A stretch of 39,413 bases of DNA from a virus (lineage: Duplodnaviria > Heunggongvirae > Uroviricota > Caudoviricetes): the IMG/VR virus record IMGVR_UViG_2703718855_000002; one strand, given 5' to 3'. The notes under the pieces are model-generated. The model was not told the DNA's origin, did not search any database, and saw only the letters and a list, made by a program, of their open reading frames with translations. Shown one piece after another: positions 14,969 to 36,279 of this stretch. Both the position numbers and the translations under genes were made by a program. How positions within the stretch are numbered: position 1 is the stretch's first letter; every line of letters begins with the position of its first letter.

Positions 14969-14995
14969 AATCATATGTGGTTAAATTGGTAATAA
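14969..14995 (+). promoter_or_regulatory. Candidate late promoter: AATCATATGTGGTT - 7 nt - TAATAA
   Basis: 14-bp near-palindrome then 7-nt spacer then -10-like hexamer; same architecture at 33613 and 36253. Confidence 0.45.
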
Positions 14996-15020
14996 TTTAA
15001 TTGCGTACGGAGTCATTGAT

Positions 15021-15227
15021 ATGTGCATGGGTAGCTCACCGTCAGTGCCTGCAACACCAGAAGTTCAGGCAGCACCACAGGAGCAGGATGCCGCCGTTGT
15101 TGATGCCCGCGACGAAGAAACTCGTCGCCGTCGCGCTGCTGCTGGTCGTAGTTCTACGCTGCTTACCGGTTCTCAGGGCGACACATCAACCGCTAATACC
15201 AGCGGTAAAACGCTGCTTGGTCAGTAA
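15021..15227 (+). CDS. Hypothetical small low-complexity protein
   Basis: 68 aa; translation context CGGAGTCATTGA-N-ATG identical to that of the portal gene. Confidence 0.35.
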   Translation: MCMGSSPSVPATPEVQAAPQEQDAAVVDARDEETRRRRAAAGRSSTLLTGSQGDTSTANTSGKTLLGQ

Positions 15228-15241
15228 CCGGAGTCATTGAA

Positions 15242-16921
15242 ATGGCGGAAACAACTAAAGAGCGATTGAACAAACAGTTCGCACAACTTGAAAGCGAGCG
15301 TCAGTCGTTCGAGCCGCACTGGCGCGAGTTGAGTGATTACATTAACCCGCGTGGTTCCCGCTTTCTGACTTCTGAGGTCAACCGTAACGATCGACGCAAT
15401 ACACGTATTATTGATTCGACCGGGACTATGGCGGCGCGCACTCTCGCCAGCGGCATGATGTCAGGCATCACAAGCCCCGCCCGTCCGTGGTTTCGCCTGG
15501 CTACGCCAGATCCTGAAATGATGGATTATGGCCCTGTTAAGTTGTGGCTTGAGGCGGTGCAGAACCGCATGAACGATATGTTCAATAAGTCGAATCTCTA
15601 TCAGTCGCTGCCGCAGTTATACGGAAGCCTCGGCACATACAGCACTGGTGCAATGGCAGTGCTGGAGGATGACGAGGACATCATTCGCACAATGCCATTC
15701 CCGATAGGCAGTTACTACCTGGCTAACTCACCTCGTGGCAGTGTGGACACCTGTTTTCGCAAGTTCTCTATGACTGTTCGTCAGCTTGTTCAGGAGTTCG
15801 GGCTAAATAACGTCAGCGAATCCGTAAAAAGCATGTGGGAAAGCGGCACCTACGAGAAGTGGATTGAAGTGATGCATTCGGTTTACCCGAACATTGACCG
15901 CGATACATCGAAGCTGGATAGCAAGAACAAGCCATTCAAATCGGTTTATTACGAGGTTGGTGGCGATAACGACAAGTTGTTGCGTGAGTCCGGATTCGAT
16001 GAGTTTCCAATTATGGCTCCGCGCTGGGAAGTTAACGGCGAAGATGTTTATGGATCATCATGCCCGGGTATGCTGGCGCTTGGACCTGTTAAGGCATTGC
16101 AGCTTCTCCAGAAGCGCAAGTCGCAGTTGATTGATAAAGCCACCAATCCGCCGATGGTTGCTCCGACTTCCCTCAAGAATCAGCGCGCCTCCCTTCTTCC
16201 TGGCGACATCACGTATATCGATCAGATTACTGGTCAGGATGGCTTCAGGCCTGCTTATCTGGTTAACCCCAGTACAGCAGATTTGGTGGCAGACATTCAG
16301 GACACTCGTCAAATCATTAACAGCGCCTACTTTGTCGATCTGTTCATGATGTTGCAGAACATCAATACCCGCTCGATGCCTGTTGAAGCGGTGATCGAAA
16401 TGAAAGAAGAAAAACTTCTGATGTTGGGGCCGGTTCTGGAGCGTCTGAACGACGAATGTCTTAATCCTCTCATTGACCGCGCTTTCTCGATGATGGTGCG
16501 TAAAAACATGCTGCCGCCACCGCCTGACGCGATGGAAGGTATGCCCCTGAATGTCGAATACATTTCCGTCATGGCTCAGGCGCAGAAGTCTATCGGCCTG
16601 TCCAGTCTAGCGTCTACGGTCAACTTCATTGGTCAACTTGCGCAAGCGAAACCAGAAGCTCTCGACAAACTCAACGTTGATCAGGCGATCGATGCATTCG
16701 CTGATATGTCCGGAGTGTCTCCAACCGTCATTGTTCCGCAGGAACAGGTTGAGCAGGCTCGCCAGCAACGGGCACAGCAACAACAGCAGCAACAAATGAT
16801 GGCGATGGGGATGGCGGCGGCACAGGGTGCCAAGACGCTAAGCGAAGCTAAAACTTCGGATCCGAGTGTTTTGTCAGCTATGGCGAATGCAGTTAGTGGT
16901 CAGGGTGGGCAATCACAATGA
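15242..16921 (+). CDS. Portal protein (T7 gp8-like head-to-tail connector)
   Basis: 559 aa; resembles T7 gp8 as recalled, including Q-rich C-terminus QQRAQQQQQQQMMAMGMAAAQGA. Confidence 0.8.
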   Translation: MAETTKERLNKQFAQLESERQSFEPHWRELSDYINPRGSRFLTSEVNRNDRRNTRIIDSTGTMAARTLASGMMSGITSPARPWFRLATPDPEMMDYGPVKLWLEAVQNRMNDMFNKSNLYQSLPQLYGSLGTYSTGAMAVLEDDEDIIRTMPFPIGSYYLANSPRGSVDTCFRKFSMTVRQLVQEFGLNNVSESVKSMWESGTYEKWIEVMHSVYPNIDRDTSKLDSKNKPFKSVYYEVGGDNDKLLRESGFDEFPIMAPRWEVNGEDVYGSSCPGMLALGPVKALQLLQKRKSQLIDKATNPPMVAPTSLKNQRASLLPGDITYIDQITGQDGFRPAYLVNPSTADLVADIQDTRQIINSAYFVDLFMMLQNINTRSMPVEAVIEMKEEKLLMLGPVLERLNDECLNPLIDRAFSMMVRKNMLPPPPDAMEGMPLNVEYISVMAQAQKSIGLSSLASTVNFIGQLAQAKPEALDKLNVDQAIDAFADMSGVSPTVIVPQEQVEQARQQRAQQQQQQQMMAMGMAAAQGAKTLSEAKTSDPSVLSAMANAVSGQGGQSQ

Positions 16922-17214
16922 CAGATTACGAAGACGATCAACTGAAAGAAGAAAACGCCCGTAAGCAACGTGACATGGCACAGCGTGAAATTGATGACAT
17001 TCGCTTTGTCATGAGCAGTGAACAGGGGCGTCGCGTTGTCTGGTCTGTGCTGGAGAAAGGCCGGGTGTTTTCCGCTATCTCTCCGATGGATGCTATGGCA
17101 ATGGCATTTAATGAGGGGCAACGCAATCTGGCGCTGGAACTGTTTCAGCGCGTTATGGCGCATTGCCCTGAACAGTATTTGAAGATGGCCAAAGAGGCCA
17201 GTGAACAGGAGTGA
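16918..17214 (+). CDS. Hypothetical head-module protein
   Basis: 98 aa; ATGA overlap with portal stop. Confidence 0.5.
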   Translation: MTDYEDDQLKEENARKQRDMAQREIDDIRFVMSSEQGRRVVWSVLEKGRVFSAISPMDAMAMAFNEGQRNLALELFQRVMAHCPEQYLKMAKEASEQE

Positions 17215-17216
17215 TC

Positions 17217-17912
17217 ATGAATTTATTTGAGCGTTTGCTGTATCGCCGTCTTTGCAATGAGCAACCAGTCGATGGTGGAGCAGCTCCGGCTGCGTCAGAA
17301 CCGTCAGCGCCTGCAGGTGATAACCCTGCTCCAGTTGGTGATCCATCACAACAGGAAGGTGATAAGCCACAACCTGTTGCTGATGGCGATAAACCTGCTG
17401 ATGACAAAAAGCCTGAAAACGATAAGCAGGATGAAAAAAAGGACGGCGATAAACCAGAGGGTGCGCCTGAGAAGTACGAATTTCAGGCTGCCGAAGGCGT
17501 AGAGCTGGATACAGAAGCGTTGAAGGAGTTCGAGCCGGTGGCTCGAGAACTAAACCTGACCAACGAGCAAGCGCAAAAGCTGGTTGATGCTTATCCGAAG
17601 ATTCTGGCAGGTGTTCAGCAGCGCCAGGCAGAAGCCTGGCAGAAAACAACCGAGCAGTGGGCTGCGGATGTAAAAGCTGACAAAGAAATCGGTGGCGACA
17701 AGTTGATTTCTAACCTTAGCTCCGCACAGCGTGCGCTTGACCAGTTCGGGACACCTGAACTCAAAGAATATCTGAACACCACCGGGCTGGGTAATCACCC
17801 TGATCTGGTCAAAACGTTCGTGAAAATCGGAAAGGCGATGTCTGAAGATGGCATGGTCACCGGTGGTAATGAAGGCCAGCGTAGTGCGGCCGAAGTGCTC
17901 TATGGCAAATAA
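17217..17912 (+). CDS. Scaffolding protein
   Basis: Acidic, Pro/Asp/Lys-rich low-complexity N-terminus; between portal and capsid; ATG 17217 after SD AACAGGAG. Confidence 0.6.
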   Translation: MNLFERLLYRRLCNEQPVDGGAAPAASEPSAPAGDNPAPVGDPSQQEGDKPQPVADGDKPADDKKPENDKQDEKKDGDKPEGAPEKYEFQAAEGVELDTEALKEFEPVARELNLTNEQAQKLVDAYPKILAGVQQRQAEAWQKTTEQWAADVKADKEIGGDKLISNLSSAQRALDQFGTPELKEYLNTTGLGNHPDLVKTFVKIGKAMSEDGMVTGGNEGQRSAAEVLYGK

Positions 17913-35982: not shown

Positions 35983-35987
35983 TTAAC

Positions 35988-36013
35988 AGAAAAGGTGGAT
36001 CACTCCACCTTTT
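35988..36013. terminator. Bidirectional rho-independent terminator after tailspike
   Basis: AAAA-GGTGGA-TCAC-TCCACC-TTTT. Confidence 0.65.
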
Positions 36014-36158
36014 CATCAAGCCAGTCCGCCCACCACTGCATCATTTCTCTGCGCTTATCGAGATACTGAGCATGGTTGTAAATCCCGCGCATAGATCCTC
36101 CGTTAGCATGTGTCAGTTGCACCGCATTGACATCCTCCACGCCCTGAAGTACTGGGTT
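36000..36158 (-). pseudogene. Integrase 3' remnant (C-terminal 52 codons of a P4-type integrase)
   Basis: Minus-strand translation ...HANGGSMRGIYNHAQYLDKRREMMQWWADWLDEKVE aligns with C-terminus of the intact integrase at 1..1257; in-frame TAA directly upstream. Confidence 0.55.
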
Positions 36159-36216
36159 TTACGGCGCACTGGATAAATTTACGATCTCATCCGTAAAATA
36201 CAAAAAAACCACTTTA

Positions 36217-36231
36217 TTACCTTTATGGTGA
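36217..36231. promoter_or_regulatory. Operator-like palindrome, imperfect (TTACCTTTATGGTGA) upstream of lysis cassette
   Basis: One mismatch in right arm. Confidence 0.3.
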
Positions 36232-36252
36232 TTTATGTAAGGTGTTTTATTT

Positions 36253-36279
36253 AACCACATATGGTTTATTATGTATGAT
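36253..36279 (+). promoter_or_regulatory. Candidate late promoter for lysis cassette: AACCACATATGGTT - 7 nt - TATGAT
   Basis: Motif in inverted orientation relative to the other two copies, same 7-nt spacing to a -10-like hexamer. Confidence 0.45.

What the first reader, a model, noticed from the sequence alone, without database searches (positions are those of the whole stretch)
14969..36279. Three late promoters share a 14-bp near-palindrome AACCAYATRTGGTT placed exactly 7 nt upstream of a -10-like hexamer
AATCATATGTGGTT-aaattgg-TAATAA (14969..14995, portal operon), ATCCATATGTGGTT-tttcagg-TAATAG (33613..33639, tailspike) and AACCACATATGGTT-tattatg-TATGAT (36253..36279, lysis) have identical geometry and no recognisable -35. 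Each lies 20-55 bp downstream of an ATTACC-N5-GGTAAT site. The geometry suggests activator-dependent late promoters in which the palindrome replaces the -35 element; the activator is unidentified (candidates: Cys-rich products of 11330..11668 or 6690..6890).
Basis: seen in the sequence. Interest (0 to 1): 0.6.

Follow-up and report, generated by a model that had tools for sequence, protein, structure and literature searches.

The report
Conserved late-promoter box of epsilon15-like phages
Three late operons (virion, tailspike, lysis) of this phiV10/epsilon15-like prophage start with the same strongly conserved 14-bp box where a normal -35 element would sit, which points to an unidentified phage regulator acting as the late switch; the kind of promoter is known from phage P1, but this box and its binder are not described.

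Summary
The window is a phiV10/epsilon15-like prophage (Uetakevirus). AWYCAYATRTGGTT occurs exactly three times (0.29 expected), ahead of the portal/structural, tailspike and lysis operons.

The box and the -10 region downstream are a sharp phylogenetic footprint in eight phages and in 87, 39 and 65 distinct metagenomic variants, while flanking DNA diverges. These are very probably the late promoters. They lack a conserved -35, like P1 Lpa-dependent late promoters.

- The invariant core is asymmetric (CATAT..GGTT). The left palindrome arm varies.
- The TAATAA and TAATAG hexamers belong to GGTAAT, a half-site of the Rep operator. For the tailspike, comparative data favour TAGAAT, 10 nt after the box.
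- ATTACC-N5-GGTAAT is the immunity repressor operator and sits at every transcription unit.
- The terminase operon has its own TGn-extended -10 promoter and no box.
- Weaker boxes lie at about -42 of two other promoters and inside the spacers of two early sigma-70 promoters. The binder is therefore a general phage regulator.
- Candidate activator 11330..11668 is disfavoured. Its family is linked to a different palindrome, GTGAC-NN-GTCAC, at its own stop codon.

The binder remains unidentified, and activation is inferred, not shown.

The parts
14969..14982 (+). P box of the portal/structural-operon promoter (AATCATATGTGGTT)
   Evidence: near-invariant in 87 distinct variants and identical in a Klebsiella phage whose portal is only 60% identical
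14988..14998 (+). GGTAATAATTT: Rep half-site GGTAAT overlapping the candidate -10 hexamers TAATAA (14990-95, preceded by TGG), AATAAT (14991-96) and TAATTT (14993-98)
   Evidence: which hexamer is used is unresolved
14915..14931 (.). Rep operator O (GTTACCTGAAAGGTAAT) upstream of the portal promoter
   Evidence: the orthologous epsilon15 site is annotated protein_bind 'repressor'
14924..14952 (-). Probable divergent leftward sigma-70 promoter, TTGACA-17-TACCTT, overlapped by O; it would serve the minus-strand tRNA-Arg and moron genes
   Evidence: TGTCAA is conserved in all relatives and shares the CTATTGAC box with PL and P_B; inferred
33613..33626 (+). P box of the tailspike promoter (ATCCATATGTGGTT)
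   Evidence: 39 distinct variants keep A1 T2 C4 A5 T6 A7 T8 G11 G12 T14
33632..33642 (+).
   Evidence: invariant T25 A26 n A28 n T30, while the last base of TAATAG varies (G/A/C)
33571..33587 (.). Rep operator O (ATTACCCGAAAGGTAAT) between the ant and tailspike promoters
36253..36266 (+). P box of the lysis promoter (AACCACATATGGTT)
   Evidence: conservation starts abruptly at CC in 65 distinct variants
36267..36279 (+). TATTAT-g-TATGAT: two -10-like hexamers, directly after the box and 7 nt after it
36216..36232 (.). Rep operator-like site (ATTACCTTTATGGTGAT) upstream of the lysis promoter
6615..6628 (+). Secondary P box (AACCAAATCTGGTT) after the cro terminator, abutting a putative promoter for the replication operon (-35 TTGATC 6625-30, -10 CAAAAT); box centred near -42
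   Evidence: conserved with GATCTTTTTT in all eight phages and 12 variants; 12.5 bits, not significant on its own; the promoter is inferred
33234..33247 (-). Secondary P box directly upstream of the predicted minus-strand promoter TTGAAA-17-TATATT (33234..33206) of the isrK/C4 antirepressor module
5450..5478 (-). Early promoter PL (TTGACA-17-AATTAT) with a weak P-like element (5456-5469) filling its spacer, flanked by O sites at 5435-51 and 5497-5513
   Evidence: the element is near-perfect in Tyrion and absent in epsilon15-type phages
8576..8618 (+). Early promoter P_B (TTGATT...) whose spacer holds the right half of P (ATGTGGAT 8590-97), followed by O 8602-18 and the ATG
   Evidence: about 25 variants keep TGTGGTT or TATGG
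11747..11788 (+). Terminase promoter: extended -10 TGGTACTAT (11747-55) with no P box, overlapped by two O sites (11754-70, 11772-88), then the terS ATG at 11790
   Evidence: TGnTAcTAT conserved in 7 phages; inferred promoter

Best explanation
The three boxes are the upstream core elements of the late promoters of the portal/structural, tailspike and lysis operons of an epsilon15/phiV10-type phage. Each promoter has a -10-like element but no conserved -35. The box, whose functional core is CATAT-NN-GGTT, spans about -33 to -20, or -36 to -23 if the -10 lies 3 nt further downstream. It takes the place of the -35 element. The most likely mechanism is that a sequence-specific phage early protein binds the box and recruits or positions sigma-70 RNA polymerase, as Lpa does at the '-22 region' inverted repeat of P1 late promoters. 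In the lysogen the immunity repressor Rep keeps these promoters off. It would do so through a full operator 20-37 bp upstream plus a GGTAAT half-site that overlaps the -10 region (portal, tailspike) or lies just upstream of the box (many lysis variants). Weaker copies of the box sit at about -42 of two other promoters and inside the spacer of the early promoters PL and P_B. The binder is therefore probably a bifunctional, genome-wide regulator that turns early promoters down and late ones on. What is shown: the elements exist, they are conserved, and they have these positions. What is inferred: that they are promoters, that a protein binds the box, that binding activates, and Rep's role at the half-site. 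The binder is unidentified. The conserved Cro-like HTH protein (6309-6539), the Zn protein 6690-6890, the PerC-like protein and the AlpA-like protein all remain possible.
For: Statistics: three sites against 0.29 expected; 19-22 bits on a matrix trained without the window, next best 13 bits. A promoter is needed at each place. The portal and tailspike genes follow divergent minus-strand genes (tRNA-Arg, ant), and the lysis genes follow the tailspike terminator. The box to -10 block lies 26-52 nt upstream of the first start codons. Footprint: in seven phages the box and the -10 region are conserved while the DNA between operator and box is not. The same holds in 87, 39 and 65 distinct IMG/VR variants, and in the lysis set conservation begins abruptly at the box. 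All three boxes persist in Klebsiella phage ST512-KPC3phi13.3, whose portal protein is only 60% identical. They are absent, together with O, from Sodalis phiSG1, which has a related portal but a different regulatory region. No sigma-70-type promoter is predicted for portal or tailspike. No Q-like, Ogr-like, Mor/C-like or sigma-like protein is recognisable among the early genes, so an unrecognised regulator is needed. Precedent: P1 has 11 late promoters with a 9-bp inverted repeat that binds Lpa (PMC10695390). LPhot reads AAGTTACTT-9 nt-AATAAT, almost the same geometry.
Against: No transcription start, binding or expression data exist for any of these promoters. A site between -33 and -20 is the classic position of a repressor operator. 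In PL and P_B the same element fills the spacer of canonical promoters, where binding should repress. The terminase operon appears to manage with a TGn-extended -10 promoter and no box, and the portal promoter also has TGG before TAATAA, so an activator may not be strictly needed. The distance from box to the best -10 hexamer may differ between promoters: 10, 10 and 7 nt. No candidate binder could be singled out, because all early regulators are similarly conserved.
Confidence: 0.5

Rival explanations
1. The box is the operator of a repressor, for example the Cro-like lytic repressor or a second immunity function. It overlaps the core of weak, -35-less or extended -10 sigma-70 promoters that need no activator. 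Late timing would then come from release of Rep, from gene dosage, or from decay of the box-binding repressor.
For: The -33 to -20 position is typical of operators. The box fills the spacer of the canonical early promoters PL (TTGACA-17-AATTAT) and P_B. It has the architecture of a 434-type 14-bp operator (own knowledge), with 4-bp arms and an A/T-rich 6-bp centre, and it resembles O (ACC-N6-GGT against ACC-N5-GGT). The terminase promoter works without it. The portal promoter has TGG-TAATAA. The Cro-like HTH is invariant across all lineages, as the box is, and Cro is confined to the phages that carry the box.
Against: Two of the three promoters have neither a -35 nor a good extended -10, so unaided activity is doubtful. 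The arms are not symmetrically conserved, which argues against a symmetric dimer. No box lies at OR/PRM, where a lytic repressor should act. The fixed box to -10 register is kept despite divergent intervening sequence in the tailspike class.
Confidence: 0.25
2. The box is the loading site of a Q-like or AlpA-like processive antiterminator. The protein would bind between the -35 and -10 positions, engage RNA polymerase paused at a second -10-like hexamer, and carry it through internal terminators of the long late operons.
For: The binding elements for lambda Q and P. aeruginosa AlpA lie between -35 and -10, and AlpA needs a -10-like pause element at -1 to +5 (PMC7969949, PMC9371919). Each late promoter here has two overlapping or adjacent -10-like hexamers. 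Epsilon15 has an annotated terminator inside the structural operon.
Against: There is no conserved -35, so these are not constitutive promoters. No terminator lies between promoter and first gene. The second hexamer is only 1-3 nt from the first, too close to sit in the transcribed region. No Q homologue was found. The window's AlpA-family protein is an 82-aa Xis-like protein, unlike the larger P. aeruginosa AlpA, whose DNA-contacting residues are numbered up to H142.
Confidence: 0.07
3. The box is bound by a host protein, a global regulator or nucleoid protein, that couples late expression to host physiology.
For: No phage binder could be assigned. The box is identical across phages of Escherichia, Salmonella, Enterobacter and Klebsiella, as expected for a conserved enterobacterial factor.
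Against: I could not match it to any E. coli regulator consensus I know (own knowledge only, not a database test). The box disappears together with the phage regulatory module in phiSG1.
Confidence: 0.08
4. The similarity is only shared ancestry of duplicated promoter modules, or chance, and the box itself has no function.
For: PL, P_B, the leftward portal-region promoter and the late regions share a CTATTGAC/ATCTA-type box and a similar layout. This suggests duplication of one ancestral module.
Against: Near-invariance of the core across 39-87 distinct variants and across lineages with 60% protein identity, next to freely diverging flanks. The three paralogous sites differ in the 7 nt after the box yet keep the spacing.
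Confidence: 0.02

Closest known systems
Phage P1 late promoters activated by Lpa (gp10)
   Same: Multiple late operons. A sigma-70 -10 element without a -35. A short inverted repeat just upstream that replaces the -35: LPhot reads AAGTTACTT-9 nt-AATAAT, centre about -25, against about -26.5 here. The phage's many repressor operators are scattered over all transcription units in both. Lpa is encoded directly upstream of the terminase genes, which is where the phrog_536 gene sits here.
   Different: The sequence is unrelated (9-bp AAGTnACTT against a 14-bp box with core CATAT..GGTT). There is no Lpa homologue in the window (tblastn E > 2). The box also occurs in early promoters. The terminase operon lacks it, whereas P1 has LPpac.
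Lambda Q / P. aeruginosa AlpA binding elements (QBE/ABE)
   Same: A protein-binding element placed between the -35 and -10 positions of late or lysis promoters.
   Different: Those promoters have normal -35 and -10 elements, a transcribed -10-like pause signal and a downstream terminator. None of these is evident here, and no Q homologue is present.
SPC32H / epsilon15 Rep operators (ATTACC-N5-GGTAAT)
   Same: They occur in the same control regions. The box has a loosely similar ACC-N6-GGT outline and always lies within a few bp of a GGTAAT/ATTACC half-site.
   Different: In O the arms are conserved and the centre is free. In the box the centre (CATAT) and one arm are conserved. The box is the same in phages whose Rep proteins are only 42% identical overall.
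P2 Ogr / P4 Delta and Mu C/Mor late activators
   Same: A small phage-encoded activator for several -35-deficient late promoters (own knowledge).
   Different: Those sites lie further upstream, for example TGT-N12-ACA at about -55. No Ogr/Delta or Mor/C family hit was found among the Cys-rich or other early proteins.

Membership tests
P1 Lpa-type late promoter | Sigma-70 -10 element, no -35, short inverted repeat immediately upstream (the '-22 region') | tested here: met
   Geometry compared with annotated LPhot. Here the box ends 7 nt (or 10 nt) before a -10-like hexamer, and no conserved -35 exists.
P1 Lpa-type late promoter | Repeat sequence AAGTnACTT | tested here: not met
   The box core is CATAT..GGTT, against AAGTTACTT in P1.
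P1 Lpa-type late promoter | An Lpa homologue is encoded | tested here: not met
   tblastn of P1 Lpa against the window gave a best E of 2.9 over 13 aa.
P1 Lpa-type late promoter | Activity depends on the activator (and on host SspA) | not testable with these tools
   Needs expression experiments.
Q/AlpA-type antitermination promoter | Binding element between recognisable -35 and -10 elements of a constitutive promoter | tested here: not met
   No conserved -35.
Q/AlpA-type antitermination promoter | A -10-like pause element in the initially transcribed region and a terminator downstream | tested here: not met
   The second hexamers lie 1-3 nt from the first. No terminator-like site lies between promoter and first gene.
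Q/AlpA-type antitermination promoter | A Q-family or AlpA (P. aeruginosa type) protein is encoded | tested here: not met
   Pfam and PHROGs scans of the early genes.
Rep operator (epsilon15/SPC32H type) | ATTACC-N5-GGTAAT with conserved arms and a free centre | tested here: not met
   In the box the centre is conserved and the left arm is variable. O sites are listed.
Extended -10 sigma-70 promoter | TGn immediately upstream of a TAnnnT hexamer | tested here: inconclusive
   The portal has TGG-TAATAA, but that hexamer lacks the final T. The tailspike has TG only in some variants. The lysis promoter has none. The terminase promoter does fit (TGGTACTAT).
P2 Ogr/Delta-dependent late promoter | An Ogr/Delta zinc-finger activator is encoded | tested here: not met
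   No Pfam hit for either Cys-rich ORF. The TGT-N12-ACA site at -55 was not searched systematically.

The most novel reading that the evidence does not exclude
Uetakevirus phages run a regulatory circuit that has not been described. In it a single unrecognised early protein reads the CATAT..GGTT box. It represses early promoters where the box fills the spacer, and it activates three -35-less late promoters where the box replaces the -35. Every unit is additionally locked by Rep through adjacent operator half-sites. A second module, the phrog_536 regulator with its GTGAC-NN-GTCAC box at operon ends next to terminators, controls termination or insulation between units.
Probability: 0.25. Interest if true: 0.65.

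Novelty: new variant of a known kind. Interest (0 to 1): 0.45.

Why it matters
Late gene control has not been worked out for the epsilon15/phiV10/SPC32H group. This group includes serotype-converting Salmonella phages, an E. coli O157 reporter phage and a structural model for repressor-antirepressor switches. It is also very common as prophages in Enterobacteriaceae. A defined 14-bp box with three strong and several weak copies gives a direct handle for finding the missing late regulator by reporter fusions or pull-downs with a 25-bp probe. It also explains how Rep can silence every operon directly, and it offers compact, tightly regulated promoters for engineering reporter phages. The side result also matters: one regulator family is tied to a palindrome at its own stop codon in podo-, sipho- and myovirus backbones, which gives that 'transcriptional regulator' family a testable DNA target.

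Tried and rejected
1. **phrog_536 protein (11330-11668) as activator.** Its homologues in ZF40 and a P2-like Yersinia phage show no box, and its family is tied to another palindrome. SPN1S has a replaced N-terminus.
2. **Structure of that protein.** The AlphaFold model was poor (pLDDT 62.7), so no fold search was run. Helices at 30-41 and 52-67 after an extended stretch are compatible with a ribbon-helix-helix fold but do not show it. Profile searches of PDB and Pfam gave nothing significant. The C-terminus resembles the TraR zinc finger only weakly (E about 0.5).
3. **Zn protein 6690-6890.** Its domain occurs in many unrelated lytic phages and in endonuclease VII-like proteins, so nothing specific followed.
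4. **Choosing the binder by differential conservation.** The Cro-like, PerC-like, AlpA-like, Zn and phrog_536 proteins are all conserved in every box-bearing lineage.
5. **Phages with a related virion module but without the box.** phiSG1 lacks the whole regulatory module, so it does not discriminate.
6. **Literature.** The epsilon15 genome paper and the SPC32H papers are not held. A full-text search for the motif strings found only primers. No paper on Uetakevirus late promoters turned up.
7. **Alternative sigma factors.** Sigma-54, -32 and -28 were compared by eye with consensus sequences from memory. None fits, and this was not tested formally.
8. **First IMG/VR query.** The query with the small gp3-like protein returned only identical loci. 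It was replaced by pattern anchors outside the box.

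
Full report
**What the window is.** The window is 98.5% identical to Escherichia phage phiV10 over the structural region and is collinear with Salmonella phage epsilon15 (genus Uetakevirus). It is in prophage order. It begins with the integrase and the leftward early operon, followed by the repressor at 5570-6154(-) and a cro-like gene at 6309-6539. The replication and nin-like genes run up to 11668, then come terS and terL. A short region with minus-strand genes and a tRNA-Arg at 14517-14593(-) follows. 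The rest is the structural operon from 15021 to about 31133, minus-strand antirepressor modules, the tailspike at 33691-35982 and the lysis genes from about 36305.

**The observation.**
- With one mismatch allowed, AWYCAYATRTGGTT matches only these three places. The expectation from shuffles is 0.29, and no shuffle reached the observed count.
- A weight matrix built only from other phages scores the three sites at 19-22 bits. The next site in the window scores 13 bits.
- The upstream ATTACC-N5-GGTAAT-like sites are also there, 37, 25 and 20 bp before the boxes.

**Conservation.** I aligned the regions upstream of the three first genes in phiV10, epsilon15, Tyrion, PAT1, SPN1S and BUCT554.
- In each case the operator, the box and the following -10 region are conserved. 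The DNA between operator and box is not conserved, and neither is the DNA upstream of the operator.
- I then collected IMG/VR contigs with sequence anchors that lie outside the box. This gave 65 distinct lysis upstream regions, 39 for the tailspike and 87 for the portal.
- In the lysis set, conservation starts abruptly at the CC of the box and runs unbroken to the ribosome-binding site, while everything upstream is unrelated.
- The tailspike set is the most diverged and so the most informative. Positions A1, T2, C4, A5, T6, A7, T8, G11, G12 and T14 never or almost never change. Positions 3, 9 and 10 vary freely, as do the five bases after the box.
- All three boxes are also present in Klebsiella phage ST512-KPC3phi13.3, whose portal protein is only 60% identical.
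- The boxes are absent, together with the operator, from Sodalis phiSG1. That phage has a related portal gene behind a different control region.
- The box is therefore a functional element that belongs to the regulatory module of this phage group.

**What is conserved is not quite what was described.**
- The left arm (AACC) is variable: AATC, ATGC, ATTC, ATAC, TTCC. The right arm GGTT and the centre CATAT are fixed. The element is functionally asymmetric, and the palindrome is only partial.
- The hexamers TAATAA and TAATAG are the end of GGTAAT, which is the right half of the repressor operator. The box is followed by N5-GGTAAT in the portal and tailspike promoters.
- In the tailspike class the last base of 'TAATAG' varies (G, A or C). 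The invariant pattern T-A-n-A-n-T lies three bases further on (TAGAAT, TACAAT, TAAACT, TAAAAT). This is what a sigma-70 -10 element should look like.
- The portal promoter offers TAATAA preceded by TGG, AATAAT and TAATTT. Rare natural variants hit each of them.
- The lysis promoter offers TATTAT directly after the box and TATGAT seven bases after it.
Only start-site mapping can settle it.

**The operator.**
- In the epsilon15 record the sites ATTACC-N5-GGTAAT are annotated as repressor-binding sites. They lie upstream of gp1, gp3 and gp20 and in the immunity region.
- The related SPC32H Rep is described as a tetramer that binds palindromic sites through pairs of N-terminal domains and is removed by a LexA-controlled antirepressor (PMC9638917).
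- The window has about a dozen such sites, at every transcription unit: two flanking PL, three at OR, one after the cro terminator, two flanking a promoter ahead of the nin-like genes (P_B), two ahead of terS, and one ahead of each late promoter.
- Rep of the window and Rep of epsilon15 are only 42% identical, but they share the probable recognition helix NLVNRW. This explains the shared operator.

**The box is not confined to late promoters, and not all late genes have it.**
- A box conserved in all eight phages follows the cro terminator at 6615-6628. It abuts a plausible promoter for the replication operon (TTGATC, then CAAAAT), which puts the box near -42.
- A second box abuts the predicted minus-strand promoter TTGAAA-17-TATATT ahead of an isrK/C4 small-RNA and antirepressor module.
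- In PL (TTGACA-17-AATTAT) and in P_B a box or its right half fills the spacer. It is near-perfect in Tyrion and weak in the window. In epsilon15-type phages it is replaced by another sequence at PL.
- These secondary sites score 11-13 bits, a range where a few chance hits per window are expected. Their weight comes from position and conservation, not from statistics.
- The terminase genes sit behind a terminator and two operators, with a conserved TGn-extended -10 (TGGTACTAT) and no box.

**Mechanism.**
- A promoter must exist in each of the three intergenic regions, because the upstream genes are divergent or are closed by a terminator. The box to -10 block is the only conserved candidate.
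- The tools predict no sigma-70-type promoter at the portal and tailspike sites. The lysis site scores 9/12 through a -35-like TTAACC that relatives do not keep.
- None of the early proteins belongs to a known late-regulator family.
- The simplest reading is a P1-like design. P1 has 11 late promoters in which a 9-bp inverted repeat binds Lpa (PMC10695390). In LPhot the repeat AAGTTACTT ends nine bases before AATAAT.
- The sequence is unrelated, however, and there is no Lpa homologue here.
- I put this reading at about 0.5.
- The main rival, at about 0.25, is that the box is an operator for a repressor such as the Cro-like protein. That protein's helix-turn-helix is invariant in all lineages, and it is found only in box-bearing phages. 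The position of the box, and its presence inside early promoter spacers, fit that reading.
- A Q-like or AlpA-like loading site is a weaker rival, because the -35, the pause element and the terminator are all missing.

**The proposed activators.**
- The Cys-rich protein 11330-11668 is phrog_536, has no Pfam or PDB match and has only 'hypothetical' relatives.
- Its homologues occur in Pectobacterium myovirus ZF40, P2-like Yersinia phages, N15/phiKO2-type phages, and Vibrio and Aeromonas phages.
- At least ZF40, N15-type phages and the Yersinia phage (vB_YenM_56.17) have their own candidate late regulators: a Q-like protein in ZF40, a putative antiterminator in N15-type phages (abstract of PMC4488713, seen), and a small terminal 'transcriptional regulator' gene in the Yersinia phage, at the position Ogr occupies in P2. 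ZF40 and the Yersinia phage have no box.
- Instead, a different perfect palindrome, GTGACATGTCAC, overlaps the stop codon of this gene in all seven Uetakeviruses. It lies two bases after the stop in ZF40. It overlaps the stop as GTGACGCGTCAC in the Yersinia phage and as GTGACTGGTCAC in phiKO2.
- In IMG/VR it sits at the same offset in 51 of 51 N15-like loci, and within 40 nt of the stop in 51 of 56 P2-like loci, 47 of them at that offset.
- In the window it recurs next to the terminators after terL and after the structural operon. That makes three exact copies and one near copy, against 0.15 expected.
- This protein therefore most likely reads that palindrome and not the box.
- SPN1S and its relatives carry a version whose N-terminal 35 residues are replaced, yet they keep all three boxes.
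- The second candidate (6690-6890) does have a box just upstream, which would suit autoregulation. Its zinc domain is widespread in unrelated phages and endonucleases.
- I could not single out a binder.

**Novelty.** I found no description of this box in the papers I could search. The two most relevant papers are not held. The epsilon15 and phiV10 records annotate operators and terminators in these regions but no promoters. The kind of promoter is known, but the element, and presumably its binder, are new. I rate it a new variant of a known kind, of moderate interest.

Noticed in passing
window 11665-11676, 13930-13941, 31138-31149 (near copies at 16970 and 38122); L004 14944; L088 8468; L283 867; loci L288-L395: The perfect palindrome GTGACATGTCAC overlaps the stop codon of the phrog_536 regulator gene and recurs next to terminators at operon ends. 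The same GTGAC-NN-GTCAC box sits at the stop codon of this gene family in ZF40, P2-like Yersinia phages (51 of 56 loci within 40 nt, 47 at the same offset) and N15/phiKO2-like phages (51 of 51 loci). Gene and site thus form a mobile cassette, possibly for termination or insulation control. The half-sites equal those of the E. coli matS consensus as I recall it, with a spacer one base shorter. This resemblance was not tested.
   Followed up: yes
window 33517-33532: A consensus LexA box, CTGTATATTTATACAG, lies upstream of the minus-strand ORF 33238-33513 (epsilon15 gp19-like, with a weak anti-repressor PHROG hit). It is conserved in all relatives. This fits the LexA-controlled antirepressor switch described for SPC32H.
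   Followed up: partly
window 32971-33054 (-) and 33079-33155 (-): Rfam matches above the gathering score to the C4 antisense RNA and the isrK Hfq-binding RNA. They lie downstream of a predicted promoter (33234..33206, minus strand) and upstream of ORF 32212-32937(-). This looks like a second, P1 immI-like antirepressor module, with an operator-like site at 33191-33207 and a weak P box at 33234-47.
   Followed up: partly
window 14517-14593 (-): A tRNA-Arg(TCT) gene on the minus strand between terL and the portal promoter. The conserved TGTCAA at 14947-52 is probably the -35 (TTGACA) of a leftward promoter that serves it, overlapped by the same Rep operator.
   Followed up: partly
window 11747-11790: The terminase genes appear to have their own TGn-extended -10 promoter (TGGTACTAT), squeezed between a terminator and two adjacent Rep operators that end one base before the terS ATG. 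The phiV10 record's earlier TTG start for terS would put the terminator and the operators inside the gene.
   Followed up: partly
window 36293-36343: The strong Shine-Dalgarno AAGGGGG serves a conserved 12-codon upstream ORF (ATG 36305, MHIKRWSLCQPR). This ORF overlaps, out of frame, the start (ATG 36328) of the first lysis-operon gene. It may mean translational coupling or a leader peptide.
   Followed up: no
window 5435-5513 and 8540-8618: PL and the promoter ahead of the nin-like genes are built alike. Two Rep operators lie exactly 62 bp apart centre to centre and bracket a CTATTGAC-type -35. The downstream operator of P_B contains the ribosome-binding site of the next gene.
   Followed up: partly
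L086 38318-38656 (Salmonella phage SPN1S): In SPN1S, and apparently in SPN9TCW and SPNIS2, the 5' third of the phrog_536 gene is replaced by unrelated sequence. The mosaic joint lies inside the gene.
   Followed up: partly
window 33655-33678: A conserved GC-rich hairpin (GCGCGCCGGGCGC-like in relatives) lies between the tailspike promoter and its ribosome-binding site. No T-run follows it, so it is probably a 5' stabiliser or translational element and not a terminator.
   Followed up: no
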